Positions 2,620-23,286 are shown, counted from the first letter of the stretch. The stretch is 25,809 nucleotides of DNA from a virus (IMGVR_UViG_3300002131_000176:76476-102284); one strand, 5' to 3'. Numbers and translations are program-made. Notes: generated by a model not told the origin, from the sequence alone.

Positions 2620-3003
2620 ATGTTTAAACAACTAAAAGCACTATGGAACTCACTTTTCGGTAAAGACACTGAGACCGATTACAGTAAGGAAGCACCATAT
2701 AAACTTGAGCCAACCGGTGAGGTTGTGGCAGAAACCCCTGCTGAGGAACCGGTTATAGTTCAACCGCCTCCACTTCCAACAGACCCAGTTAGTTATTGGC
2801 CCTTTCCCAGCGCACCACCACACGAAGCTAATAAGCCTATTAAGGAAAGAAAGAAACGTAACCCACCAAAGGTTGCCGCTGTTACCACACCAAAGGTCCC
2901 AGCTGAATCTGTAAAGAAAACACCCAAGGAAATTGCGGCAGAACGACGTAAAGCCGCGGCAGCCGCTGATCGTAATAGAGCTAAAGGTAAGAAAACAAAA
3001 TAA
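2620..3003 (+). CDS. Hypothetical Pro/Lys/Ala-rich low-complexity protein
   Basis: ATG 2620 after GAGG; acidic/Pro-rich middle (PPPLPTDP, WPFP) and basic tail. Confidence 0.7.
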   Translation: MFKQLKALWNSLFGKDTETDYSKEAPYKLEPTGEVVAETPAEEPVIVQPPPLPTDPVSYWPFPSAPPHEANKPIKERKKRNPPKVAAVTTPKVPAESVKKTPKEIAAERRKAAAAADRNRAKGKKTK

Positions 3004-3013
3004 AAACTATATT

Positions 3014-3439
3014 ATGAAAATTGGTCTTACTGCATCTACATTTGACTTACTTCACGCCGGTCATATTGCTATGCTGAGAGAAGCTAAATCTACTTGTGAT
3101 TACTTAATATGTGCATTGCAGGTAGATCCTAGCTTGGATCGTACAGAGAAAAATGCTCCGGTTCAAAGCATTGTTGAGCGCCAAGTCCAACTTGATGCTG
3201 TTAAATATGTAGACGAAGTAGTAGTATATTGTACAGAATCAGATTTACTTGATATAATAAACATGTATCCTATTAATGTACGGATACTTGGAGAAGAATA
3301 CCGCCAAAAAGATTTCACGGGTAAAGATGAATGTCGTAACCGTGGCATCGAACTATATTTTAATAAACGTGACCACCGATTTTCATCTAGTGACTTGCGC
3401 AAACGCGTCGCTACCAAAGAATTGGAAAATAAATTATGA
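3014..3439 (+). CDS. Cytidylyltransferase (TagD/glycerol-3-phosphate cytidylyltransferase-like)
   Basis: STFDLLHAGH (HxGH), ER..QLDAVKYVDEV, C-terminal RDHRFSSSDLR; start ATG 3014 rather than 2933. Confidence 0.9.
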   Translation: MKIGLTASTFDLLHAGHIAMLREAKSTCDYLICALQVDPSLDRTEKNAPVQSIVERQVQLDAVKYVDEVVVYCTESDLLDIINMYPINVRILGEEYRQKDFTGKDECRNRGIELYFNKRDHRFSSSDLRKRVATKELENKL

Positions 3440-8517: not shown

Positions 8518-8931
8518 ATGAAATCTTGGTTTACAGATATGAAAGAAATGCACGCACATTATGGCGTGCCAGAATGGATGAGCAAAACCCGCGAAGCTGA
8601 TCCAGAAAAAGTTAATAAGTTTCTTGAGTTTCGTATGAATTTCTTGAAAGAAGAATACGATGAAACACAAAAGGCATATAAAGAAAAAGATGCCGAAGAA
8701 GTAATTGATGGCTTGATTGACTTATGTGTTATTGCTATTGGTACACTTGAAGCGTTTGGCATTGATGCTGATAAAGCATGGAATGAAGTACTCAAAGCTA
8801 ACATGAGCAAAAATGTCGGTGTAAAACCTGAGCGTCCAAATCCATTAGGAATGCCTGACTTGATAAAACCTGAAGGATGGACTGCCCCAAGCCATAAGGA
8901 CAATCATGGTTATTTGCCTGACGCGCTTTAA
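8518..8931 (+). CDS. MazG-like/PRA-PH family all-alpha dNTP pyrophosphatase
   Basis: FLKEEYDET...EEVIDGLIDL, EVLKANMSK, KPEGW.AP motifs. Confidence 0.85.
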   Translation: MKSWFTDMKEMHAHYGVPEWMSKTREADPEKVNKFLEFRMNFLKEEYDETQKAYKEKDAEEVIDGLIDLCVIAIGTLEAFGIDADKAWNEVLKANMSKNVGVKPERPNPLGMPDLIKPEGWTAPSHKDNHGYLPDAL

Positions 8932-10652: not shown

Positions 10653-11459
10653 ATGCACTTTAAAATTGCAATCATTGGCCATGGATTTGTTGGTAAAGCT
10701 GTTGACTATGGATTTACCAATCCAAAAGTAATAAAGCAAACTATTGATCCAAAGTATAACAATAATGTTAACCATATCGATATTAGCACCGACTTAATAT
10801 TTGTGTGTGTTCCTACACCTATGGGTGATTTTAGTATTATCCGTAATACGATGGAGCAGTTAAAGCTACGTGGTTTTTTAAATCATAGTATGGTAGTAAT
10901 TAAATCTACAGTACCGCCAGATGTGTTAAAGGAATTTGCAACAAGCAGTGTGGTGTATAACCCTGAGTTTTTAACTGAAAAGTCGGCTTCTGAACAATTT
11001 ATTAATCCACCGTTTCACATTTTTGGTGGAGATACCCGGGCTTCAGACACGCTTGAAAGATATTATCAGCAATATAGCCTATGCAATATTTGTCCTTCGT
11101 ATAAATTGACTATTGAAGAAGCTTCAGTTGTAAAATATACTATTAATTCTTTCCTTGCAACCAAGGTAGCTTTCTTTAATCAACTTTATAGTATGTGCGC
11201 TGATAATGGTTATAATTTTAATCAAATTATTCAAGCTGTAGGTGCTGATTCTCGTATTGGACACAGCCACACCAAAGTGCCGGGGTTTGATGGAAAACTA
11301 GGGTTTGGCGGAGCGTGTTTTCCTAAAGATACCCAAGCTTTTGTTAACTTTAGTGATAAATTATCAGTATTAGAAGCTGTTATAAGTGCCAATAATACGA
11401 TGCGTGCTGAATACGAGTTAGATGACCGTGAAAAAGAACAAAAAATTATGTACAAATAA
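10653..11459 (+). CDS. UDP-glucose/GDP-mannose 6-dehydrogenase family (short form)
   Basis: GHGFVG, CVPTP, KSTVPP, NPEFL, KYTINSFLATKVAFFN, GFGGACFPKD (catalytic Cys). Confidence 0.9.
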   Translation: MHFKIAIIGHGFVGKAVDYGFTNPKVIKQTIDPKYNNNVNHIDISTDLIFVCVPTPMGDFSIIRNTMEQLKLRGFLNHSMVVIKSTVPPDVLKEFATSSVVYNPEFLTEKSASEQFINPPFHIFGGDTRASDTLERYYQQYSLCNICPSYKLTIEEASVVKYTINSFLATKVAFFNQLYSMCADNGYNFNQIIQAVGADSRIGHSHTKVPGFDGKLGFGGACFPKDTQAFVNFSDKLSVLEAVISANNTMRAEYELDDREKEQKIMYK

Positions 11460-11477
11460 CAGATTCTGTTGTATAAT
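11449..11477 (+). promoter_or_regulatory. Early-type promoter for the gp42 operon
   Basis: TGTACA-17-TATAAT; AGGAG RBS follows. Confidence 0.75.
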
Positions 11478-11500
11478 GTTAAATCAACTCAGGAGTAATA

Positions 11501-12148
11501 ATGTTAAAGGTATCTGATATACGCACTCTTTTTGTCAAAGCTTTGGCAGATGAGCGTTTTACCACAGATCGTAATGGATCAAAAACCATTGAGATCCTTG
11601 GTGCATCATTCGTAGCTGATGAGCCAGCTATCTTTGGCGAACCAAGCTATGAATATATCCAGCGTGAATTTCGATGGTACAATTCAATGTCTAGCAACGT
11701 CAATGATATTGAAGGTACTGTACCTGCTGCCTGGAAAATGACTGGAAACAAGCACGGCGAGATTAATTCAAACTATGGCTTATTAGTTTACTCAGATAAA
11801 TTTTATAATCAATTTAAAAGAGTCGTGGAAGAATTACAAACTAATCCGGATTCTCGCCGTGCGTCTATGATCTACACTCGTCCATCGATTTGGAATGAGT
11901 ACAATGAGAATGGCAAAAACGACTTCATCTGTACCAATTCAGTCACATACTACATTCGTGATAGTAAGTTGCATTGTGTAGTTCAGATGCGTTCCAACGA
12001 TGTCGTCTATGGCTATAAGAATGATTATGCCTGGCAGCTGCATCTTTTACACCAAGTAGCAAATACTTTAAATGTTGAAACCGGTACTATTACATGGCAA
12101 GTTCAGAATTTGCACGTGTACGAACGCCATTTTAATCTTGTAAGCTAA
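11501..12148 (+). CDS. 42: dCMP hydroxymethyltransferase (T4 gp42-like)
   Basis: KTIEILGASFVADEP, YIQRE..WY, GEINSNYG, NPDSRR..MIYTRPS, DFICTN, MRSNDVVYGYKNDYAWQ (Asp175 = cytosine-specifying residue), LHVYERHF; closely parallels T4 gp42. Confidence 0.92.
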   Translation: MLKVSDIRTLFVKALADERFTTDRNGSKTIEILGASFVADEPAIFGEPSYEYIQREFRWYNSMSSNVNDIEGTVPAAWKMTGNKHGEINSNYGLLVYSDKFYNQFKRVVEELQTNPDSRRASMIYTRPSIWNEYNENGKNDFICTNSVTYYIRDSKLHCVVQMRSNDVVYGYKNDYAWQLHLLHQVANTLNVETGTITWQVQNLHVYERHFNLVS

Positions 12149-13104
12149 TGAACGTAATCACTAATCCAATATCAAACATTCCAAAGAATGAGAAGTCGCA
12201 TGTGCTTGGTTGGTCTTTGTTATGGAAAGATCAACTCAAAGCATCTATAGATCATAAATGCACTCCGTACATTAAGAATGCTGATGTAGTATATATTGAG
12301 CATGGCGCTAATTTTGGTGGCACCCTTAATTTGTTTGGTGGTGCAAATAAGGAAGTATTTGATAAAATCAACCTTGTAATGTCTTGCACTAACATCGTGT
12401 CTTTAGATTGGGATATGCCAGATTACGGCGCTATGCTAAAGAAACGGCTCGATGCTCCTACTACATATAAAGGCATTACTGAGAAATGGTGCGACCTTGT
12501 ATCAAAACGGATACAAAGTATTTCCTCACTCAAACAGAAAGACCTGTTGACTGATGGTGTCACAATCGGTGATTCGCATACCATAGCGTTTAGCGGCGTA
12601 GGCGATCGGGTGTATCGCGCTGATGGTAAAACCCTTTTTGGAACTTTAAAAAAAGGATTACGTCAGGATTTTGGCGAACTTGTTGGTAAAGCTACCTTTT
12701 GTATGGGGTCAATTGATATTAGGCACCACATCTTACGCTATCCTGATTTTTCTTTAAAAGATACTATTAAGGACTATGTAAGCCAGGCCAAAGAATTAGC
12801 TGATGATGTATGGTTTGCTGCTCCAGTTCCAGTAGAGTTTGAAGGAAGACGCATTCCTAAATCTGGATTTTATAAGAAGACTCCTTTTTTTGGTTCTTGG
12901 AAAGACCGACAAGAGCTTACCAATAACTTTATTGATATGCTATATACTGAGTCAAAAGGTAAAGTTGTAATGCCACCAAAAGAATGGTACACTATGGATC
13001 CTGAGAAATACGCAAATACGTTTATGGAACATGGTTCGTCTTTTCACATTGCACCGCCATTTCATTTTAGAAAAAACTGGGGAGTAACAGCACTTGCCGC
13101 ATAA
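12148..13104 (+). CDS. Uncharacterised protein, C-terminal SGNH/GDSL-like domain
   Basis: IGDSH, GKTL, GSIDIRHH, SSFH blocks; translationally coupled to gp42 (TAATG). Confidence 0.55.
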   Translation: MNVITNPISNIPKNEKSHVLGWSLLWKDQLKASIDHKCTPYIKNADVVYIEHGANFGGTLNLFGGANKEVFDKINLVMSCTNIVSLDWDMPDYGAMLKKRLDAPTTYKGITEKWCDLVSKRIQSISSLKQKDLLTDGVTIGDSHTIAFSGVGDRVYRADGKTLFGTLKKGLRQDFGELVGKATFCMGSIDIRHHILRYPDFSLKDTIKDYVSQAKELADDVWFAAPVPVEFEGRRIPKSGFYKKTPFFGSWKDRQELTNNFIDMLYTESKGKVVMPPKEWYTMDPEKYANTFMEHGSSFHIAPPFHFRKNWGVTALAA

Positions 13105-13990
13105 TAACCATGTAATTGACGGGGTCAACCGAGACATAAATCCGTTTTATGGCGATCCAAAAGAATATTATTTAGAGATGGCAAAGGATTGGGAAGATCC
13201 TTATGGAATGCCAGAAATTGTGACACATGACGGAATCAGGGTGGTGCGGGATGATTTTCTTGTAGGATCAAAAGTACGTGGTGGAGATTGTTTGATATCA
13301 TCGCTGCCTGAGCATATCGATACCATTGTGTATGTTCAGCCTAGGACTGGTTTAGCAGGTGTATCAATCCTTGATGTAGCAAAGCGCCATAATAAGAAGG
13401 TGCGACTGTTCATGCCTTCTTCTCAGAAGATTTCAGTGCATCAAGCCTGTTGTATCGAACGTGGGGCTGATGTATCTTTTCATCGTATTGCTGCAATGCC
13501 TAATCTAAATTTGATTGCAAAGAAATGGGCTAGTGAACATTCGAATGCATTCTTTGTTCCTCTTGGATTAAAGCATGAACGTGTGACAGCAGGTATTGTA
13601 AAGTCTGCTTCACGCATACCAGCGCCTGATGTCGTGTATACTGCCACGTCCACGGGCGTGCTCACCCGCGCGCTTCAGATTGCTTGGCCAGATGCTGAAT
13701 TTGTATCTGTCTGTGTATCACGTAATATGAAAGCGGGTGAACTTGGTAAAGCTAAGCCCATTTCTGAAAACCTTGCATTTACTTCAAGCGAGAAAAAAGA
13801 GAACTTACCACCATTTCCTAACATAGATACCTACGACGGAAAGGTATGGAAATTTATACCTAAGAATAGTGATAAAGATATTCTATTTTGGAACGTAGGC
13901 CGTGAGCCAGAGCTTATTAACAAATCGATTATTGATCAAACAGACTCATATCGCGATTGGGAAAAGAATGTCAAACAAATGGCTGAATGA
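13094..13990 (+). CDS. PLP-dependent enzyme (fold type II/PALP-like)
   Basis: VVRDDFLVGSKVRG (putative PLP Lys), TATSTGVL phosphate loop, YDGKVW, LFWNVG; TTG start with GGAG RBS. Confidence 0.8.
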   Translation: MPHNNHVIDGVNRDINPFYGDPKEYYLEMAKDWEDPYGMPEIVTHDGIRVVRDDFLVGSKVRGGDCLISSLPEHIDTIVYVQPRTGLAGVSILDVAKRHNKKVRLFMPSSQKISVHQACCIERGADVSFHRIAAMPNLNLIAKKWASEHSNAFFVPLGLKHERVTAGIVKSASRIPAPDVVYTATSTGVLTRALQIAWPDAEFVSVCVSRNMKAGELGKAKPISENLAFTSSEKKENLPPFPNIDTYDGKVWKFIPKNSDKDILFWNVGREPELINKSIIDQTDSYRDWEKNVKQMAE

Positions 13991-15023
13991 AGAAGCTCTG
14001 GATGTATTAGTTAACTACTATTACCCACGCGCAAAATGGTTACAAGATAATTGCAACTGGGGCGATATATCTTATCTAGGATCAGAAGCTGATAAAGCAG
14101 TCAATGATCCATTAATGCAATATATTGACATTTACGATTGTTACACACGCGATGCGGCTGGTTTTTCGAATGTATTACAGGACTTAAAGTTTCGTGTTAA
14201 CACACCCAAGAGACACCATCAAATTAAAAACTCAGCTCTCGGCCAAAAACACTGGGATCTTGTCGATAGTTATATTACTGAAAGTTGGGATACCAAGACT
14301 TGGTTCTATACTTACTTTGTTCATCGTATTACAGGTTCTGGCGCATCGTTCACGCGTGACCACGGCTATCGCAATAATGTAGTTCAACATTTTGGTAAGC
14401 TGCGTGATATCAAAGATATGAAAGCTTTCATGATTGAGAAAAAGCAATCTGGAAAGCCTTTATTTACTTCGATTGGCAACCAGCCACCGTCACCCCGTAA
14501 AGGCGTTACGTGTCTTGATTTTATGGTAAACGAACTTGAACCTTTAGTTGATCGTTTTATGGAATGGTTGCCAAAGGAAGGCCGTAAAAGGACTCATAAA
14601 GAAGTAGTTGATTATTTGAATGAGTATAACATAGAACAAGGTCACAAGCGATTTAACTTTGTGTATGCTGCATTCTCATATGATATGGGTGACTACCACA
14701 AAGATTTAGTTGATGATATGTCGCATGGCTACTTTGGTAATAACGCGATACGATGCATGAAGCTCTTATCAAACGGGTATACTACGGACGAATTCATGGA
14801 TCTTCTCTGTGAGCGCATGGGAGGCGCACCACGTGATAACGAAGACGTAATGTGTGACTTTGTTCGCTTTGGCCAAAACTATGTACCACGCAGCGATAAC
14901 ACCTTTGATCATGTGCCATCCGATATAAGTAATAAATCTGGATGGGAGTCTGGGTGGGAACAAAGACAAGGCCAACCGAATATTGCAAAAAACGATTTAC
15001 AACTTGATGCTTTCATGGTATAA
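13968..15023 (+). CDS. Divergent amino acid:DNA transferase / aGPT-PPlase-like protein
   Basis: N-terminal DPLMQYIDIYDCYTR and C-terminal EDVMCDFVRF resemble the DPIL..Y.F.N..R and E..LCE..KY motifs; adjacent to the PLP enzyme; start ATG 13968. Confidence 0.55.
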   Translation: MSNKWLNEEALDVLVNYYYPRAKWLQDNCNWGDISYLGSEADKAVNDPLMQYIDIYDCYTRDAAGFSNVLQDLKFRVNTPKRHHQIKNSALGQKHWDLVDSYITESWDTKTWFYTYFVHRITGSGASFTRDHGYRNNVVQHFGKLRDIKDMKAFMIEKKQSGKPLFTSIGNQPPSPRKGVTCLDFMVNELEPLVDRFMEWLPKEGRKRTHKEVVDYLNEYNIEQGHKRFNFVYAAFSYDMGDYHKDLVDDMSHGYFGNNAIRCMKLLSNGYTTDEFMDLLCERMGGAPRDNEDVMCDFVRFGQNYVPRSDNTFDHVPSDISNKSGWESGWEQRQGQPNIAKNDLQLDAFMV

Positions 15024-15024
15024 T
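14996..15024 (+). promoter_or_regulatory. Early-type promoter
   Basis: TTTACA-17-TATAAT with TGG; overlaps the upstream stop codon. Confidence 0.75.
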
Positions 15025-15035
15025 AGACGTATATT

Positions 15036-15668
15036 ATGAGCAATGATTTAAAAGACTTAATTTCTACTCCATTAGATCTACCATTAATTGAGCCTACAAG
15101 CTGGGATGATTGGTGGGATTTGTGGAACAAGGAATCTGCATATACGCCTAAAGTAATAAAAACACATAACAATGTGAGTTCTCCATGGAAAGGCCTTGAG
15201 ATATGGTCTAGGCCTGGTATAAATTCAAGGAGTATAGTGACATATGATGCGAAAAATGTCAATCGGCCTGACTTATTTCCATCGATTTTTGATAACCTAG
15301 ATAAATTTCCTATTAAAATCGATATAGTTAGAGTTGTTTCAAATTTTGTAACAGTTATACCACACAGTGATGCACTTCCAGATAAAAAAATATTAAGTGT
15401 GCGATCTATGCTTTATAACACTAATATTGAACCAACGTTTAATTACAGATTGAATGGCCAAAAAGTATACCAAACACTTCCTAAAGATACAAACACATGG
15501 ATGTATTGGGATCATAAAACTAAACATGCTGCTGATTTTCATCATGGGTATACTAAACATTTAATAACTATATATGGCCGTCAAAAGGCTAATTATAATG
15601 AGTATATTGAAAAAAGTGCTAACATGTATAAGGACCATGCTATTTTTAACACAAAAACAATGGAATAA
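15036..15668 (+). CDS. Putative 2OG-Fe(II) oxygenase/cupin-like protein
   Basis: PHSD (HxD)...KHAAD distal His...basic residue then hydrophobic strand. Confidence 0.5.
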   Translation: MSNDLKDLISTPLDLPLIEPTSWDDWWDLWNKESAYTPKVIKTHNNVSSPWKGLEIWSRPGINSRSIVTYDAKNVNRPDLFPSIFDNLDKFPIKIDIVRVVSNFVTVIPHSDALPDKKILSVRSMLYNTNIEPTFNYRLNGQKVYQTLPKDTNTWMYWDHKTKHAADFHHGYTKHLITIYGRQKANYNEYIEKSANMYKDHAIFNTKTME

Positions 15669-15673
15669 AAATT

Positions 15674-15871
15674 ATGACAGAACCCAAGAAACGACTTAAC
15701 GACGTTACGCCTGAGGAATGGAACAAAGCTCACGATAAATGGGCTAATGAATCTACGCTAGTTCACTCAGAACATTACTACGACTCTGACCGCAACAAAC
15801 CATTAAATGATGAAAAAAATGATACAAACTCCGACTGGGACAACTGGAAACCATCAAAAACATTTGTCTAA
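15674..15871 (+). CDS. Small hypothetical protein
   Basis: 65-aa ORF, LNDVTPEEW motif. Confidence 0.55.
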   Translation: MTEPKKRLNDVTPEEWNKAHDKWANESTLVHSEHYYDSDRNKPLNDEKNDTNSDWDNWKPSKTFV

Positions 15872-16316
15872 CGAGCATAACAGCTGGGACCATGTATTTT
15901 TACGACTTGCTAAAGAAGTAGCATCATGGTCTAAAGACCCCTCAACCAAGGTAGGCGCAATTGCTGTCGGCCCTAAACGCAATGTTTTGGCTCAAGGCTA
16001 TAACGGTTTTCCTAGAGGTATTTTTGATTATGCCGAAAGATATGATGATAAACCTACTAAGTACATGTATGTCGTCCATGCAGAGATGAATGTCATTTAT
16101 AATGCTACGTATAATGGTGTTTCACTTGATGGTGCATCACTTTATATTCATGGATTGCCGCCGTGCTCTGAGTGCGCCAAAGGCATTATACAAGTTGGCA
16201 TTAAAGAAATTATAACTGAAACCGCTGGCATTCCTAAAAAATGGCAAGATTCATGGGAATTTTCTAAGAGTATGTTTGATGAAGTAGGTATCACTGTTCG
16301 AACTATCGAAAGATAA
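15807..16316 (+). CDS. cd: dCMP deaminase
   Basis: SKDPSTKVGA, GYNGFPRG, HAEMN, PCSECAKGIIQVGI; start may be TTG 15864. Confidence 0.95.
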   Translation: MMKKMIQTPTGTTGNHQKHLSNEHNSWDHVFLRLAKEVASWSKDPSTKVGAIAVGPKRNVLAQGYNGFPRGIFDYAERYDDKPTKYMYVVHAEMNVIYNATYNGVSLDGASLYIHGLPPCSECAKGIIQVGIKEIITETAGIPKKWQDSWEFSKSMFDEVGITVRTIER

Positions 16317-16317
16317 A

Positions 16318-17274
16318 ATGGCAAATATTTTAATAACCGGCTGTGCAGGCTTTATTGGATATCACACAGCAATAAAGCTCCACGGTGAAGGCCACCGCGT
16401 GACTGGCATTGATAATTTTAATAATTACTATGATGCTAATTTAAAGATTGCTCGCAGCTCTTTATTAGAAAAAAATGGTATCATGGTTATTAGAGGTGAT
16501 ATTACTAATACGGTTGATGTTGAATATGCAGTTACTTCAGCTGCACCTGATGTCGTGGTGCACTTGGCTGCGTATGCCGGTGTTCGACATTCGTTAAATA
16601 ATCCACAGCTGTATATCGATAATAATATTACTGCCACTAATAATTTAATTCAGATTTGTGAGCAACGTGGAGTGGATAGAGTAATTTATGCTTCCACCTC
16701 TGCTGTCATGGTAGGTAATGAACTGCCTTGGAATGAAACCGAAAAATTAGGTTATCAGCTAAATGCATACGCATACTCTAAGGCTGCTAATGAATCTCAG
16801 TTCATGTCAAGCAAATTGCCAGTTGCCATTGGCCTTCGATTCTTTACTGTCTACGGTCCATGGGGTCGCCCAGACATGGCGCTGTTTAGCTTTACTAAGT
16901 CAATCATAGATGGTACACCAATTAAATTATTTAATTATGGTGATATGATTCGTGACTTTACTTACATTGACGATATTATCCAAGGCATTAATATTGTTAT
17001 CAGTCACGCAAATAATACACCAGTCCCGCTAAAAACAGTGTATAATATAGGTTATGGCAAACAAGTTCAACTCATGGACTTTGTGAGTGAAATCGAAAAG
17101 AACGTTGGTAAGGAGGCAATTAAAGAATTGGTTGAAAAACACCCGGCTGATGCACAAACTACCTGGTCAGACACTACCAAACTTCAAGCGCTTGGTTATA
17201 AACCAACAACATCAGTAGAAGTTGGTGTTGCTAAATTTGTTGAGTGGTACAAAGAGTACTACAATATCGTATAA
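16318..17274 (+). CDS. NAD-dependent epimerase (UDP-glucuronate 4-epimerase/WcaG-like)
   Basis: TGCAGFIG, HLAAYAGVRHS, YAYSK, LRFFTVYGPWGRPDMA, RDFTYIDD. Confidence 0.92.
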   Translation: MANILITGCAGFIGYHTAIKLHGEGHRVTGIDNFNNYYDANLKIARSSLLEKNGIMVIRGDITNTVDVEYAVTSAAPDVVVHLAAYAGVRHSLNNPQLYIDNNITATNNLIQICEQRGVDRVIYASTSAVMVGNELPWNETEKLGYQLNAYAYSKAANESQFMSSKLPVAIGLRFFTVYGPWGRPDMALFSFTKSIIDGTPIKLFNYGDMIRDFTYIDDIIQGINIVISHANNTPVPLKTVYNIGYGKQVQLMDFVSEIEKNVGKEAIKELVEKHPADAQTTWSDTTKLQALGYKPTTSVEVGVAKFVEWYKEYYNIV

Positions 17275-20170: not shown

Positions 20171-20328
20171 TGATTGATGTAATTGATTATAACGAAGATT
20201 CAGATGAAGGTCCTGCAACGATGCGGGTATTGCTTGATGCTAAGGCCAAAAAGAATCTAATTGAACTTGGGTTTATTGCATCACTTAAAAGATCCATAGA
20301 AGAATATGAAGAAAGTCTAAAGAAATGA
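20170..20328 (+). CDS. Small hypothetical protein (52 aa, not in ORF track)
   Basis: MIDVIDYNEDSDEGPATMRVLLDAKAKKNLIELGFIASLKRSIEEYEESLKK; coupled at both ends (TAATG, ATGA). Confidence 0.7.
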   Translation: MIDVIDYNEDSDEGPATMRVLLDAKAKKNLIELGFIASLKRSIEEYEESLKK

Positions 20329-21014
20329 AAGCAACATTAATAAGTTTTTCCAAACCTACGAGGCAATTATATGATCAAGGGTTATATGACGCGCAGGACC
20401 TTATTGCATACTGCGCCAGAGTTAGCAATCCAGCCAACCAGTTTAATACAGCGACTGCTGAAAAACTGCTCGGATATCTGGCCAAGCACAAACACTGGTC
20501 CCCATTTGAAATGGTCTCAGCCTGTATCGAAGTTGAAACAACCAGAGACATCGGCCGTCAGTTACTACGACACCGCTCGTTCTCCTTTCAAGAGTTCTCA
20601 CAAAGGTACGCAGATCCAACTAAAGATTTGGAAATGGTACTTCGCGAACCACGCCTTCAGGACGAGAAAAATAGACAGAATAGTGTAGAGCTTGATATGA
20701 CCACTGATGATGGTCGGCGACTTGCTTGGATGTGGGAAGCACAACAGATTAAGGTCCGTGATGCTGCTCGTGAAGCATACAGTTGGGCTATTGATAATGG
20801 TATTGCCAAAGAACAGGCCAGAGCCGTACTACCAGAAGGTCTCATGATGTCCAGGCTACAGGTCAATGGTACCATTAGGTCATGGATCCACTACATCGAA
20901 CTACGGTCAGGCAATGGTACCCAAAAGGAACACATCCAGATCGCTCAGGCGTGCGCTCAAGCGATTACTCAAGCCTTCCCTATGATATCATCATATGTAG
21001 AAAGTAGTACTTAA
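20325..21014 (+). CDS. thyX: Flavin-dependent thymidylate synthase ThyX
   Basis: HWSPFE, RQLLRHRSFSFQEFSQRY, EQARAVLP, LR...TQKEH. Confidence 0.97.
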   Translation: MKATLISFSKPTRQLYDQGLYDAQDLIAYCARVSNPANQFNTATAEKLLGYLAKHKHWSPFEMVSACIEVETTRDIGRQLLRHRSFSFQEFSQRYADPTKDLEMVLREPRLQDEKNRQNSVELDMTTDDGRRLAWMWEAQQIKVRDAAREAYSWAIDNGIAKEQARAVLPEGLMMSRLQVNGTIRSWIHYIELRSGNGTQKEHIQIAQACAQAITQAFPMISSYVESST

Positions 21015-21472: not shown

Positions 21473-22096
21473 ATGCTAGAAACAATATGTGAAGTAATGG
21501 TCGACGCGTATAAGCGCAATTGGATCACCAGCCGTGATGGTAATGTAAGTATCCGTCACCATGATCGCGATCATTTTTATATCACGCCGAGCGGTGTTCG
21601 TAAACAGACACTACAGCCAGATCAATTTAAAAAGATTAAGATTGTAAACAGTTTTGAATACCGTCAGTTAGAGTACACAGACATCAGCGCCAAACTAACA
21701 CCTAGTGGAGAGATTCCTCTACACTTTGGTTTACAAAGAGCAATGGGACAACATGCTGGAGATGTCCGTGTTGTAGTCCATGTGCATCCCACATATTGTA
21801 TTGCTGCTATGCATGCTGGTATTGATCTAAGCACAATCAGTGATGCCTTTCCAGAACTGAATCGGTATACTCGAGTTGCTCCTAATGTTGGAGATGTACC
21901 TCCTATCAGTCAAGAACTTGCTGATCAGTGTCATGAAAATCTGCAACTAGACAAAAATGGTAATATTGCTTATGACATTGTGGGTATTAAAGGTCATGGA
22001 GTTGTTGCTATTGATACATCGCCGTGGCGTGCATACGAACATATCGAACGCTTAGAACATATTTGTAAGATTGTGCTTGCAAGCGGAAAATATTAA
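21473..22096 (+). CDS. Class II aldolase/adducin family protein
   Basis: DGNVS, ITPSG, PSGEIPLH, VVHVHP, GHGVV metal ligands. Confidence 0.92.
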   Translation: MLETICEVMVDAYKRNWITSRDGNVSIRHHDRDHFYITPSGVRKQTLQPDQFKKIKIVNSFEYRQLEYTDISAKLTPSGEIPLHFGLQRAMGQHAGDVRVVVHVHPTYCIAAMHAGIDLSTISDAFPELNRYTRVAPNVGDVPPISQELADQCHENLQLDKNGNIAYDIVGIKGHGVVAIDTSPWRAYEHIERLEHICKIVLASGKY

Positions 22097-22101
22097 AAAT
22101 A

Positions 22102-23286
22102 ATGACTAAAAAAACAGTTGCGGTAGTAGGTGCAGGGATATCTGGTGTATGCGCAGCGTATTACCTTGCTCGAGCAGGATATGCGGTAACAGTGTATGAC
22201 GCAGAGCGCTATCCCGCCATGCGAACTAGTTTTGCCAATGGCGGACAAGTGAGTGTCAGTAACAGCGAGGTGTGGAATACCTGGAGTAATGTATTTAAGG
22301 GTATTAAGTGGATGTTTCGCAAGGATGCTCCTTTGCTTATCAAACCCAGTTTTGAATGGGCTCGTATCAAGTGGATAAGCAAGTTTTTGTGGACAACTAT
22401 GCGAGGTCGTGCAGATGCAAACACTGCGGAGACTATTCGCATGGGACTAGAAGCCCGAGCATTGTACAAAGACATCATTGCAGAAGAGAGTCTAGAGTTC
22501 GATCAATCAAACAGTGGCATCCTACACTTCTATAAGAATCCAGAATATCTACAAAACGCACACAATGTAAAAGAATTGTATAACGCAAATGGGTGTTCTT
22601 GGGATATGCTAGGCGAAATGCAAACCAAATCAATGGATCCTGCACTAACACAAATTAGTGGCATTGTAGGTGGTGCATGGACTGGTGAAGACTGGACTGG
22701 TGACATACACAAGTTCTGTACTGAATTATGTAAGGTGTTAGAGTCAAAGTATGGCGTGGAATTTAAGTTTGGAATGGAAGTAAATGGTAAGCTATTAGGA
22801 TATGATGCTGTAGTTATTGCTAACGGCGTAGGTAGTACGCGATTAGCAAATACTATTGGTGATACTTTAGATGTTTATCCAGTTAAGGGATATAGTATTA
22901 CTATCAACGTCAGTGATGATAATATGAAGTATGTACCAAAGGTTAGTCTATTAGATGACGAGGCAAAGATTGTTACCAGCACACTAGGAAACCGATTCCG
23001 TGTTGCAGGTACAGCCGAACTTGCCGGAGAAGACTACGATATCAGACGTGATCGCATTGAACCCTTGTTGAATTGGGTACACACTAACTTTCCCAATATA
23101 AATACCAGTGACTACACACAATGGGCATGTTTGCGTCCTATGGCACCAGACATGATGCCTATTGTCAAACAAAGTAAGGTTGATAGCAGAGTATTTTACC
23201 ATACTGGACACGGACACTTGGGTTGGACACTAAGCCCGGCAACTGCTAAAAAATTAACAAATGCGGTGTTAAATGCGCATTTTTAG
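22102..23286 (+). CDS. dadA: FAD-dependent D-amino acid dehydrogenase (DadA-like)
   Basis: GAGISG, TSFANGGQ, YPVKGYSIT, RVAGTAE, WACLRP, GHGHLGWTLS. Confidence 0.88.
   Translation: MTKKTVAVVGAGISGVCAAYYLARAGYAVTVYDAERYPAMRTSFANGGQVSVSNSEVWNTWSNVFKGIKWMFRKDAPLLIKPSFEWARIKWISKFLWTTMRGRADANTAETIRMGLEARALYKDIIAEESLEFDQSNSGILHFYKNPEYLQNAHNVKELYNANGCSWDMLGEMQTKSMDPALTQISGIVGGAWTGEDWTGDIHKFCTELCKVLESKYGVEFKFGMEVNGKLLGYDAVVIANGVGSTRLANTIGDTLDVYPVKGYSITINVSDDNMKYVPKVSLLDDEAKIVTSTLGNRFRVAGTAELAGEDYDIRRDRIEPLLNWVHTNFPNINTSDYTQWACLRPMAPDMMPIVKQSKVDSRVFYHTGHGHLGWTLSPATAKKLTNAVLNAHF

What the first reader, a model, noticed from the sequence alone, without database searches (positions are those of the whole stretch)
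11449..15023. Candidate new cytosine hypermodification pathway: dCMP hydroxymethylase operon carrying thymine-hypermodification-type enzymes
Seen: one promoter drives four overlapping or coupled ORFs: gp42-like, SGNH-like, PLP enzyme, aGPT-PPlase-like. The gp42-like protein has RSNDVVYGYKND with Asp175 (codon 12023-25). Established: Asp at this position (T4 gp42 D179 versus ThyA N177) selects dCMP. Amino acid:DNA transferases with PLP decarboxylases are known from 5-hmU thymine hypermodification (ViI, M6, phiW-14-type phages), where a 5-hmU DNA kinase activates the base. Here dTMP is supplied separately by ThyX, and no such kinase or canonical T4 alpha/beta glucosyltransferase is recognisable in the window. 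Inference: hmC is elaborated with an amino-acid-derived and/or acyl or sugar group by an uncharacterised route.
Basis: partly seen in the sequence, partly recalled or inferred. Interest (0 to 1): 0.92.

Follow-up and report, generated by a model that had tools for sequence, protein, structure and literature searches.

The report
Kinase-free hydroxymethylcytosine hypermodification cassette
An uncultured marine T4-like phage makes T4's base 5-hydroxymethylcytosine but, instead of T4's sugar-adding enzymes, carries a conserved trio of enzymes related to those that hang amino acids on thymine in other phages, so its DNA probably holds a decorated cytosine that nobody has yet described chemically.

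Summary
One promoter-like site (11449-11477) precedes four overlapping genes. (1) A true gp42 dCMP hydroxymethylase with catalytic Cys144 and the cytosine-selecting Asp175. (2) A two-domain protein whose C-terminal half has the SGNH esterase/acyltransferase fold, with an invariant GDSH motif. (3) A PLP enzyme homologous to M6 gp52, the decarboxylase of thymidine hypermodification; its Lys60 aligns with gp52 Lys36. (4) An all-helical protein whose best solved match is PaMx11 gp46, the amino acid:DNA transferase (AADT).

New here: genes 2 and 4 are fused into one protein in other phages. In the three of four fusion loci that show the downstream DNA, a gene-3 homolog follows directly. Gene 4 ends in the same C-terminal peptide as the phage's clamp clients gp43 and gp55. 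Where gene 4 lacks that tail, gene 2 carries it. No P-loop base kinase, T4 glucosyltransferase or radical SAM gene was found in the 102-kb record, which is 61% complete.

Most likely the trio acts on 5-hmC in DNA behind the replication fork and adds an amino-acid-derived group by a kinase-free route. The product is unknown and nothing is tested experimentally. Earlier notes of this scan reported the same cassette on other genomes. I found no paper describing it.

The parts
11449..11477 (+). sigma-70-type promoter-like site (TGTACA-17-TATAAT) in front of the four-gene unit
   Evidence: 10 of 12 consensus positions. This is a consensus match only, and the number of such sites in the region is not above shuffles.
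11501..12148 (+). gp42-type dCMP hydroxymethylase (215 aa); Cys144 nucleophile, Asp175 specificity residue (codon 12023-12025)
   Evidence: phmmer to T4 gp42 1b49 E 6.9e-69, with FICTN and KNDYAW aligned to T4 C148 and D179; PF00303; Asp in 51/51 homologs of related loci
12148..13104 (+). ORF2 (318 aa): N-terminal alpha/beta domain of unknown fold (about 1-130) plus C-terminal SGNH-fold domain (about 130-313) with invariant G141-D-S143-H144, D190, H194, S298, H300
   Evidence: AF2 pLDDT 90.9. VIA-align top 47 rows are all SGNH proteins, Z 8-11.3, including the O-acetyltransferases OatA and PatB. Invariant residues. No Pfam or NCBIfam hit; phrog_13881, function unknown.
13094..13990 (+). ORF3 (298 aa): fold-type-II PLP enzyme of the M6 gp52 / PHROG 7093 family; Lys60 is the predicted Schiff-base lysine
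   Evidence: hhalign versus M6 gp52: probability 96.6%, E 4.9e-10, 209 columns, with SK60VRG aligned to gp52 SK36IRG and a shared PPFP..YD.K.W..FWN.G tail; phrog_7093 E 2.7e-34; weak PALP hit; tblastn with gp52 hits this gene
13968..15023 (+). ORF4 (351 aa): all-helical HhH-glycosylase/aGPT-PPlase-superfamily protein, the candidate base-flipping transferase subunit
   Evidence: AF2 pLDDT 92. [quoted passage not shown] VIA-align top hit 8z2m_A PaMx11 gp46/PUGT, Z 9.3, followed by AGOG/OGG/AlkA/EndoIII.
15000..15020 (+). C-terminal peptide QLDAFMV of ORF4: sliding-clamp-binding-like tail
   Evidence: Only 4 of 126 ORFs of the record end this way: gp43 (TLEDFFA), gp55 (DLSDFLE; identified by phmmer to 7d7c_F, E 1.2e-13), ORF4 and one unknown protein. 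The tail is present in 74 of 79 ORF4 homologs; the other five loci carry it on ORF2 where that C-terminus is on the contig. It is present in 0/73 ORF3 and 0/51 gp42 homologs.
8518..8931 (+). PRA-PH/MazG-like all-alpha NTP pyrophosphohydrolase: candidate dCTP-clearing enzyme (accessory; inferred)
   Evidence: PF01503 E 3.2e-11; the role is inferred by analogy with T4 gp56
15807..16316 (+). dCMP deaminase, usually placed between gp42 and ORF2 in related phages (accessory)
   Evidence: PF00383 E 4.3e-20; present in 55 of 80 related loci
10653..11459 (+). truncated UDP-glucose-dehydrogenase-like protein (268 aa, lacks the C-terminal domain); variable neighbour of the cassette
   Evidence: PF00984 and PF03721 only; TIGR03026 below its cut-off; adjacent in 25 of 80 loci
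16318..17274 (+). SDR-type NAD-dependent epimerase/dehydratase; variable neighbour of the cassette
   Evidence: PF01370 E 3.2e-46; adjacent in 20 of 80 loci

Best explanation
The four genes form a cassette that replaces cytosine with a hypermodified 5-hydroxymethylcytosine.

Step 1 rests on strong homology. The gp42 homolog makes hm-dCMP from dCMP, and ThyX supplies dTMP separately. After phosphorylation the nucleotide is built into DNA by gp43, as in T4.

Step 2 is inferred. On newly made DNA, ORF4 flips 5-hmC into its pocket. ORF4 is a base-flipping helical protein of the AADT/HhH-glycosylase superfamily and appears to be tethered to the gp45 sliding clamp by its C-terminal tail. It works together with ORF2, its fusion partner in other phages. 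ORF2's SGNH domain (Ser143, His300) takes the place of the P-loop 5-hmU DNA kinase. Either it activates the 5-CH2OH group as an ester, or it directly transfers an acyl or aminoacyl group, so that an amino acid or amine becomes attached at the 5-methylene.

Step 3 is inferred from homology to M6 gp52 and ViI gp226. ORF3 (PLP, Lys60) processes the appended amino acid, most likely by decarboxylation. No radical SAM isomerase is present. A PLP enzyme needs a free primary amine, so an O-linked or side-chain-linked amino acid is the simplest guess. An example would be a serine-derived 5-(2-aminoethoxy)methylcytosine, the cytosine analogue of ViI's base.

The likely biological role is protection of phage DNA from host nucleases.
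For: - gp42: E 6.9e-69 to T4 gp42, with Cys and Asp conserved. Asp is present in 51/51 neighbours.
- ORF3: homologous to the biochemically characterised M6 gp52 (PMC8989533). An ORF3-like PALP domain is fused to an N6/N4 DNA methylase in Erythrobacter phage R6L gp1.
- ORF4: PaMx11 gp46/PUGT is the top solved match (Z 9.3, 202 residues). The next 14 rows are queuine-salvage DUF2419 proteins and HhH DNA glycosylases. BFVD matches are AADT, Pplase1 and HMUDK-helical proteins.
- ORF2: SGNH fold with an invariant GDSH motif.
- Fusion: seven natural fusion proteins carry an ORF2-like N-terminal half and an ORF4-like C-terminal half. In L084, L086 and L087 the fusion gene is followed directly by an ORF3 homolog of 45-47% identity.
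- Neighbourhood: ORF4 homologs occur with ORF3 in 74, ORF2 in 61 and gp42 in 51 of 80 IMG/VR loci. Many of these loci are truncated. Gene order is permuted in several, which argues for selection on the gene set rather than mere inheritance.
- Clamp tail: shared with gp43 and gp55, and swapped between ORF4 and ORF2 across clades.
- Missing genes: no homolog of M6 gp54 or PaMx11 gp49 kinase, gp53 rSAM, gp47 FAD lyase or gp48 acetyltransferase in G000 or any related locus. No PF18723, PF13671 kinase, PF04055, PF09198 or PF11440 in G000.
Against: - No experiment exists, so the product is unknown.
- ORF4 has no sequence-profile similarity to clade-2 AADTs. Pfam ADDT hits only 1 of 53 family members, at E 1e-3.
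- Z 9.3 for an all-helical protein lies in the range where fold matches can reflect a common arrangement only (note).
- The SGNH block III Asn is replaced by an invariant Ile, and block V is S-x-H rather than D-x-x-H. Catalytic competence and the direction of the reaction (hydrolase or transferase) are therefore uncertain.
- The record is only 61% complete, so a kinase or glycosyltransferase could lie elsewhere in the genome.
- Nucleotide-sugar-type genes often flank the cassette, so a sugar-derived group is not excluded.
Confidence: 0.62

Rival explanations
1. ORF2 itself makes the final product. In this reading an SGNH O-acyltransferase, targeted to flipped-out 5-hmC by ORF4 acting as a non-catalytic DNA-binding subunit, esterifies the hydroxymethyl group to give a 5-acyloxymethyl- or aminoacyl-oxymethyl-cytosine. 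ORF3 would then tailor or supply the acyl donor rather than act on DNA.
For: SGNH-fold O-acetyltransferases (OatA 6vjp, Z 10.1; PatB 7tjb, Z 9.7) are among ORF2's structural matches. ORF2 and ORF4 are fused in other phages, much as the kinase and helical domains are fused in 5-HMUDK. Cultured Aeromonas phages carry gp42 plus an ORF2-like fusion but no ORF3. A precedent for an O-linked carbonyl adduct on hmC exists: 5-carbamoyloxymethylcytosine (PMC8670742).
Against: ORF4 keeps many invariant polar residues (R61, R120, N136, D239, E292; near-invariant C296, D297). That pattern fits an enzyme better than a passive adaptor. ORF3 belongs to a family shown to act on DNA-borne amino acids (PMC8989533), and 74 of 80 loci keep it next to ORF4.
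Confidence: 0.17
2. The adduct is sugar-derived. The flanking cytidylyltransferase-like, truncated UGDH-like and SDR genes would make an activated (uronic) sugar, and the ORF2 N-domain or ORF4 would transfer it to 5-hmC. This would be a new glycosyl-hmC system.
For: UGDH-like, SDR and CTP_transf_like genes adjoin the cassette in 25, 20 and 22 of 80 loci. They bracket it in the window. The ORF2 N-domain is an alpha/beta domain of unknown function. One fusion protein has a weak MGDG_synth hit (E 8e-4).
Against: The sugar genes are absent from most loci, whereas ORF2, ORF3 and ORF4 are constant. No glycosyltransferase family matches ORF2 or ORF4. A PLP enzyme of the gp52 family has no obvious role in glycosylation.
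Confidence: 0.1
3. The enzymes act before replication on free nucleotides or metabolites (for example on hm-dCMP), or are unrelated to base modification. In the second case ORF4 would be a DNA or nucleotide glycosylase used for repair or host-DNA attack, ORF2 an esterase, and ORF3 a metabolic auxiliary gene.
For: ORF4's structural neighbours include real glycosylases and the queuosine-nucleotide hydrolase DUF2419 (Z 8.3). No activity has been measured.
Against: The clamp-client-type C-terminal tail on ORF4 or ORF2 points to action on DNA at the fork. The link to gp42 is tight and conserved. ORF2 and ORF4 are fused, with ORF3 adjacent, in distant phages. ORF3's nearest characterised relative works on DNA.
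Confidence: 0.08

Closest known systems
Thymidine hypermodification pathways of phages M6, ViI, PaMx11, PhiW-14 and SP10 (dUMP hydroxymethylase, P-loop 5-HMUDK kinase, aGPT-Pplase2/AADT, PLP decarboxylase, with or without rSAM isomerase, FAD lyase or acetyltransferase; PMC8989533, PMC11472151)
   Same: A hydroxymethylpyrimidine is made at the nucleotide level by a thymidylate-synthase-family enzyme. The PLP enzyme is homologous to M6 gp52. A helical protein has the PaMx11 gp46/PUGT fold. The genes are clustered, and fusions between the activating domain and the helical domain occur in both systems.
   Different: The base is cytosine (gp42 with Asp175), not uracil. No P-loop kinase is present; an SGNH-fold protein sits in its place and is the fusion partner of the helical domain. 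ORF4 is not detectable by the Pfam ADDT or HMUDK_hel models or by hhalign against clade-2 AADTs. No rSAM, FAD-lyase or acetyltransferase homologs are present. ORF4 or ORF2 carries a clamp-binding-like tail.
T4 glucosyl-hmC system (gp42, gp56, gp1, alpha- and beta-glucosyltransferase)
   Same: It has a gp42 ortholog (about 55% identity to those of T4-like phages) and a T4-like replication module (gp43, 44, 45, 62, 41, UvsX, gp55). The cassette lies between gp43 and uvsX.
   Different: No PF09198 or PF11440 glucosyltransferase was found in the 102-kb record. Amino-acid-type tailoring enzymes are present instead.
5-hydroxymethylcytosine carbamoyltransferase / 5-carbamoyloxymethylcytosine (MetaGPA study, PMC8670742)
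   Same: It is a non-sugar elaboration of phage 5-hmC, found in environmental phage contigs next to a dCMP hydroxymethylase.
   Different: That system is a single carbamoyltransferase of an unrelated family. It has no SGNH, AADT-like or PLP genes.
ORF233c of Aeromonas T4-like phages 44RR2.8t, 31 and 25 (795 aa, hypothetical)
   Same: Its N-terminal 330 aa are homologous to ORF2 (32% identity, E 1e-38). The same phage encodes a gp42 homolog (48% identity; also stated in PMC2771037). The protein ends in SLDGLFAI, a clamp-type tail.
   Different: Its C-terminal 460 aa are not detectably ORF4-like, with only a sub-threshold HMUDK_hel hit (E 0.0036). No ORF3 homolog occurs in these phages. The gene lies beside a Na+/solute symporter gene, not beside gp42.

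Membership tests
gp42 dCMP hydroxymethylase (thymidylate synthase superfamily) | Full-length sequence homology to T4 gp42 | tested here: met
   phmmer to 1b49, E 6.9e-69, query residues 3-214 aligned to gp42 residues 7-225; PF00303 E 3.3e-22
gp42 dCMP hydroxymethylase (thymidylate synthase superfamily) | Catalytic Cys (T4 C148) and cytosine-selecting Asp (T4 D179; Asn in ThyA) | tested here: met
   FIC144TN and KND175YAW align with T4 MC148TN and RND179YAW
gp42 dCMP hydroxymethylase (thymidylate synthase superfamily) | Hydroxymethylation of dCMP rather than dUMP | not testable with these tools
   needs an enzyme assay
Amino acid:DNA transferase (aGPT-Pplase clade 2; Pfam ADDT PF18724) | Match to the family's sequence model or to a profile of characterised members | tested here: not met
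   No Pfam hit for ORF4 even at E 10. Only 1 of 53 family members hits ADDT, at E 1e-3. hhalign of A1 against M6 gp51 and against the 8-member AADT alignment A5 gives probability below 2%.
Amino acid:DNA transferase (aGPT-Pplase clade 2; Pfam ADDT PF18724) | Two-helical-bundle, HhH-glycosylase-like fold of PaMx11 gp46/PUGT | tested here: met
   8z2m_A is the top row among 48,161 chains: Z 9.3, rmsd 3.8 A, 202 residues. The following rows are DUF2419 queuine-salvage proteins and HhH glycosylases. BFVD matches are AADT, Pplase1 and HMUDK_hel proteins. Caveat: this Z lies in the grey zone for helical proteins.
Amino acid:DNA transferase (aGPT-Pplase clade 2; Pfam ADDT PF18724) | Conserved catalytic-site residues of PUGT (D22/D24, R93/R94/R97, K150, E243, C247) | tested here: inconclusive
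   ORF4 has invariant E292 and near-invariant C296 with the same E-x3-C spacing as E243/C247, and a DPL motif. No alignment places these residues opposite each other.
Amino acid:DNA transferase (aGPT-Pplase clade 2; Pfam ADDT PF18724) | Co-occurrence with a P-loop 5-hydroxymethyl-base DNA kinase | tested here: not met
   No homolog of M6 gp54 or PaMx11 gp49 in G000 or 85 related loci. No PF18723 or PF13671 kinase. The only Walker-A ORFs identified are gp44 and gp41; the others (assigned by position, or unassigned) lie outside the cassette and showed no kinase match. The record is 61% complete.
PLP-dependent decarboxylase of thymidine hypermodification (M6 gp52 / ViI gp226; PHROG 7093; fold type II) | Homology to a characterised member | tested here: met
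   hhalign of A4 against M6 gp52: probability 96.6%, E 4.9e-10, 209 columns; phrog_7093 E 2.7e-34; tblastn with gp52 hits ORF3, E 1e-3
PLP-dependent decarboxylase of thymidine hypermodification (M6 gp52 / ViI gp226; PHROG 7093; fold type II) | Schiff-base lysine (gp52 K36) and phosphate-binding S/T-G loop | tested here: met
   Invariant K60 in SKVRG aligns with gp52 SK36IRG. S186-T-G188 aligns with gp52 SSGT. K36 is named in PMC8989533.
PLP-dependent decarboxylase of thymidine hypermodification (M6 gp52 / ViI gp226; PHROG 7093; fold type II) | Decarboxylation of a DNA-borne amino acid | not testable with these tools
   needs biochemistry
SGNH/GDSL hydrolase-acyltransferase superfamily | Three-layer alpha/beta/alpha SGNH fold | tested here: met
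   ORF2 residues 129-313 match: the top 47 representative chains are all SGNH, Z 8.1-11.3; 133 chains at Z of 8 or more in the second look; Foldseek 3mil E 9e-4
SGNH/GDSL hydrolase-acyltransferase superfamily | Block I GDS with the nucleophilic Ser directly after the first strand | tested here: met
   Invariant G141-D142-S143-H144 follows strand 137-141
SGNH/GDSL hydrolase-acyltransferase superfamily | Block III GxND oxyanion-hole Asn and block V DxxH | tested here: not met
   Block III reads G187-S-I189-D190 with an invariant Ile. The C-terminal motif is S298-F-H300 with invariant E294, not DxxH. The geometry of the triad could not be inspected.
T4-type glucosyl-hmC system | Alpha- or beta-glucosyltransferase (PF11440, PF09198) | tested here: inconclusive
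   No match at E of 1 or less in the 102-kb record, but the record is only 61% complete

The most novel reading that the evidence does not exclude
Marine T4-like phages make a natural DNA base not yet described: an amino-acid-derived (probably decarboxylated) substituent on the 5-methylene of cytosine. It would be installed on DNA by a clamp-tethered two-component enzyme, in which an SGNH acyl-enzyme domain replaces the ATP-dependent nucleobase kinase of the thymidine pathways. That would be new activation chemistry for a DNA base.
Probability: 0.45. Interest if true: 0.9.

Novelty: new variant of a known kind. Interest (0 to 1): 0.8.

Why it matters
All known amino-acid-type DNA hypermodifications sit on thymine and start with an ATP-dependent nucleobase kinase. 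Known elaborations of phage hmC are sugars or a carbamoyl group. This cassette would carry the amino-acid chemistry over to cytosine and do so without the kinase.

It is not a curiosity. ORF4 relatives occur on at least 375 IMG/VR contigs, and ORF4 and ORF2 have 232 and 617 protein clusters respectively in ocean and other metagenomes. A large share of marine T4-like phage DNA may therefore carry an unknown base. That has consequences for restriction and CRISPR evasion, for sequencing and library bias in viromics, and for the supply of new DNA-modifying enzymes as tools.

The clamp-tail observation also gives a testable model of how a base-modifying enzyme is coupled to the replication fork.

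Tried and rejected
- Complex prediction for ORF2+ORF4 gave no verdict (score 0.00). It counts neither for nor against binding.
The contexts of the most distant ORF4 relatives could therefore only be sampled with the search for related loci (L084-L087).
- The 'atlas' fold library was not available. The protein-atlas search on the ORF2 N-domain gave nothing.
PF09198 has no match in the record. phmmer of residues 1-135 against PDB gave only noise. No GT rows appeared in the fold searches. The N-domain was not folded on its own, so its fold is still open.
- hhalign of the ORF4 family against the C-terminal part of Aeromonas ORF233c found nothing. BLASTP also found nothing.
- The window's DAO-type FAD oxidoreductase (22102-23286) shares only the dinucleotide-binding motif with the PaMx11 gp47 FAD lyase. 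It is absent from the 80 related loci, so I did not count it as part of the cassette.
- Megablast of the region and tblastn of ORF4 against 50,697 deposited phage genomes found no match.
- Profile searches of the ORF2 and ORF4 families against PDB sequences found nothing meaningful.
- Iyer et al. 2013 (the original aGPT-Pplase paper) is not in the held library. What I say about it comes from PMC8989533's account and from memory.

Full report
**Setting**

The window is the last 25.8 kb of a 102,284-bp IMG/VR virus record that CheckV rates 61% complete. It holds a T4-type replication module:
- gp45, gp44, gp62, RegA, gp43, a primase-like protein, UvsX and gp41;
- gp55 just upstream of the window, identified by phmmer, followed by two ORFs in the positions of T4 gp47 and gp46 (assigned by position only).

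The closest deposited polymerases are 'Phage C48C1' (54% identity) and T4-like cyanophages (48%). This is an uncultured marine T4-like myovirus with an unknown host.

**Observation**

The four ORFs are real and tightly coupled. They lie at 11501-12148, 12148-13104, 13094-13990 and 13968-15023 and overlap by 1, 11 and 23 nt.
- The TTG start of ORF3 is supported because its N-terminus (MPHNNHVIDG) is conserved in homologs.
- The ATG at 13968 is the likely start of ORF4.
- The two best + strand promoter-like matches of the region flank the unit, at 11449-11477 and 14996-15024. No terminator-like site lies inside it on the + strand. The overall count of promoter-like sites is no higher than in shuffles, so I treat the promoter as plausible only.

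**gp42**

The first protein matches T4 gp42 at E 6.9e-69 over its whole length. The catalytic Cys (C144, equivalent to T4 C148) and the Asp that selects cytosine (D175, equivalent to T4 D179; codon 12023-12025) are both conserved. All 51 gp42 homologs on the related contigs have Asp at that position. ThyX (PF02511) at 20325-21014 provides dTMP. A PRA-PH/MazG-like NTP pyrophosphohydrolase (8518-8931) and a dCMP deaminase (15807-16316) fit a T4-like hmC nucleotide economy. Their roles are inferred.

**ORF3**

Pfam gives only a sub-threshold PALP hit, but PHROG 7093 matches at E 2.7e-34. A profile of 19 homologs aligns with M6 gp52 at 96.6% probability (E 4.9e-10, 209 columns). M6 gp52 is the PLP-dependent decarboxylase shown to act on amino-acid-nucleobase conjugates in DNA (PMC8989533).
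- The invariant Lys60 (SKVRG) falls on gp52 Lys36, the residue that paper names as the Schiff-base lysine.
- The S-T-G phosphate loop and a distinctive C-terminal PPFP..YD.K.W..FWN.G signature are shared.
- An ORF3-like PALP domain (above Pfam's threshold) is fused to an N6/N4 DNA methylase in Erythrobacter phage R6L gp1. This independently ties the subfamily to DNA modification.

**ORF4**

ORF4 has no Pfam, PHROG or NCBIfam match. The library of cluster representatives gave 123 relatives. With 53 of these and closer homologs, AlphaFold2 gave a confident all-helical model (pLDDT 92).
[quoted passage not shown] They are followed by aGPT-Pplase1 proteins and 5-hmdU DNA kinase helical domains of phiRSL1, SP10 and PhiW-14.
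- Against 48,161 solved chains, the best match is PaMx11 gp46/PUGT, the only AADT with a structure (Z 9.3, rmsd 3.8 A, 202 residues). It is followed by DUF2419, AGOG, OGG, AlkA and EndoIII. This is the superfamily relationship proposed for aGPT-Pplases.
- At the sequence level ORF4 is not a member of the described clades. hhalign against M6 gp51 and against an 8-member AADT alignment is null. Pfam ADDT touches 1 of 53 members.
- I therefore file ORF4 as a new family within the superfamily. It works like an AADT or HMUDK-helical domain, but it is not an AADT by membership.

**ORF2**

ORF2 also lacks any named family. It matches only phrog_13881, whose function is unknown. The model (pLDDT 90.9) has two domains.
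- Residues 129-313 have the SGNH fold. Every one of the top 47 representative chains is an SGNH protein (Z 8.1-11.3), including the peptidoglycan O-acetyltransferases OatA and PatB.
- Block I is an invariant GDSH directly after the first strand.
- Block III lacks the usual Asn (GSID).
- Block V is S298-x-H300 rather than DxxH.
- The N-terminal 130 residues (invariant S17, H18, N61, G64, G65, R100) matched nothing.

**What links the genes**

1. Neighbourhood. Among the 80 best of 375 IMG/VR contigs that encode an ORF4 relative, ORF3 is present on 74, ORF2 on 61 and gp42 on 51. Many contigs are cut at the cassette. Gene order varies: ORF3-ORF2-ORF4 in some, gp42-ORF4-ORF3-ORF2 in others.
2. Fusion. 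Seven metagenomic proteins of 639-790 aa consist of an ORF2-like N-terminal half and an ORF4-like C-terminal half. On three of four viral contigs with such a fusion, an ORF3 homolog (45-47% identity) follows immediately. One of these contigs, L086, also has a TS-like gene that reads RSSDAWLGWVYDVF. By eye this places Asp at the specificity position.
3. A shared tail. ORF4 ends in QLDAFMV. In the whole record only four of 126 ORFs end in L-x-x-[FM]-[FML]: gp43 (TLEDFFA), gp55 (DLSDFLE), ORF4 and one unknown protein. T4 gp43 and gp55 are established clients of the gp45 clamp through their C-terminal tails (established knowledge).
   - The tail is kept in 74 of 79 ORF4 homologs.
   - In the five without it (L076-L079, L081), ORF2 carries it instead wherever its C-terminus is on the contig.
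   - In all 60 loci with both C-termini, at least one partner has the tail.
   - ORF3 (0/73) and gp42 (0/51) never have it.
   - The idea of a clamp motif came from an earlier first-reader note. The counts and the swap are my own tests.

**What is missing**

- No homolog of the P-loop kinases M6 gp54 or PaMx11 gp49, nor of the rSAM isomerase, FAD lyase, acetyltransferase or clade-2 AADT, occurs in the record or in any related locus.
- There is no PF18723, PF13671 kinase, PF04055, PF09198 or PF11440.
- The Walker-A ORFs I could identify are the clamp loader gp44 and the helicase gp41. The rest lie outside the cassette in the structural or recombination regions; some are assigned only by position and some have no family match.
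- The record is incomplete, so 'kinase-free' is a strong suggestion, not a proof.

**Mechanism**

I propose the following steps.
1. hmC is made and incorporated as in T4.
2. ORF4, riding on the clamp, flips out hmC.
3. ORF2's SGNH domain supplies the activating or transferring chemistry that the kinase supplies for hmU.
4. An amino acid or amine ends up on the 5-methylene.
5. ORF3 decarboxylates or otherwise tailors it.

No rSAM isomerase is present, and a PLP enzyme needs a free primary amine. An O- or side-chain-linked amino acid (the ViI logic, serine to aminoethoxymethyl) is therefore the most economical guess. Every step after incorporation is inference.

Three rivals are scored separately:
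- ORF2 makes a final ester adduct and ORF4 is only the targeting subunit.
- The adduct is sugar-derived and uses the variably adjacent cytidylyltransferase-like, truncated UGDH-like and SDR genes.
- The enzymes act on nucleotides, or on something unrelated to base modification.

**Known versus new**

I found no paper describing this gene set. The nearest precedents are the thymidine pathways (PMC8989533, PMC11472151), T4 glucosylation, and the hmC carbamoyltransferase found by MetaGPA (PMC8670742).

Earlier AI notes of this scan describe the same cassette on other genomes and reach the same reading. They are not independent evidence.

Cultured Aeromonas T4-like phages (44RR2.8t, 31, 25) carry gp42 (48% identity; PMC2771037) and a 795-aa protein with an ORF2-like N-terminal domain and a clamp-type tail. 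They lack ORF3, and that protein's C-terminal part is not detectably ORF4-like. They offer the cheapest wet-lab entry point.

**Verdict**

This is a new variant of a known kind of system, hydroxymethylpyrimidine-based DNA hypermodification. It is widespread in the ocean, and there is a realistic chance that both the product and the activation chemistry are new.

Noticed in passing
window 15036-15668: A 210-aa ORF with no family match sits directly after ORF4, behind the best promoter-like site of the region (14996-15024, TTTACA-17-TATAAT with TG). It is absent from 99%-identical contigs L002-L004, where ORF4 is followed at once by the 65-aa ORF. It is probably a recent insertion or moron.
   Followed up: partly
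window 21473-22096; L016, L025, L026, L027, L030: A class II aldolase/adducin-family gene lies 6.5 kb downstream in the window, next to a DAO-type FAD oxidoreductase. Its homolog is inserted between ORF3 and ORF4 in five related contigs, which hints at a role in making the donor or tailoring the adduct.
   Followed up: partly
window 10653-11459: The UDP-glucose-dehydrogenase-like protein is truncated: 268 aa, with the NAD-binding and central domains only and no C-terminal UDP-binding domain. It lies immediately upstream of the cassette promoter. Such a two-step alcohol-to-acid oxidase without a UDP-sugar domain might act on another primary alcohol.
   Followed up: no
L088:6300-7019 (- strand; same virus record, outside the window): An unknown 239-aa protein ends in LEGLEDFF. 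It is the fourth ORF of the record with the clamp-client-type tail shared by gp43, gp55 and ORF4. It has no PDB sequence match.
   Followed up: partly
L082:4813-7233 (Erythrobacter phage vB_EliS_R6L gp1): An 807-aa protein annotated as a DNA methylase is a fusion of an N6/N4 DNA methyltransferase domain and an ORF3-like PALP domain. Similar matches occur in Erythrobacter phage ZS04 and Microcystis phage Mae-JY30. This may be another uncharacterised DNA hypermodification enzyme.
   Followed up: partly
L001:5995-8382 (Aeromonas phage 44RR2.8t ORF233c): A 795-aa hypothetical protein has an ORF2-like N-terminal domain, a sub-threshold HMUDK_hel hit near its C-terminus and a clamp-type tail (SLDGLFAI). 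It is encoded next to a Na+/solute symporter gene, and the same phage has a gp42 homolog.
   Followed up: partly
L090:11793-13786 and L090:15432-16013 (same virus record): Three tandem paralogs of about 220 aa, each with a Gly_rich_2 domain, lie in the structural region. A small 2OG-Fe(II) oxygenase gene follows.
   Followed up: no
window 2933-3439: A cytidylyltransferase-like protein (PF01467; PHROG 'heptose 1-phosphate adenylyltransferase') is encoded among the clamp-loader genes. Its homologs sit directly upstream of gp42 in 22 of 80 related loci.
   Followed up: partly
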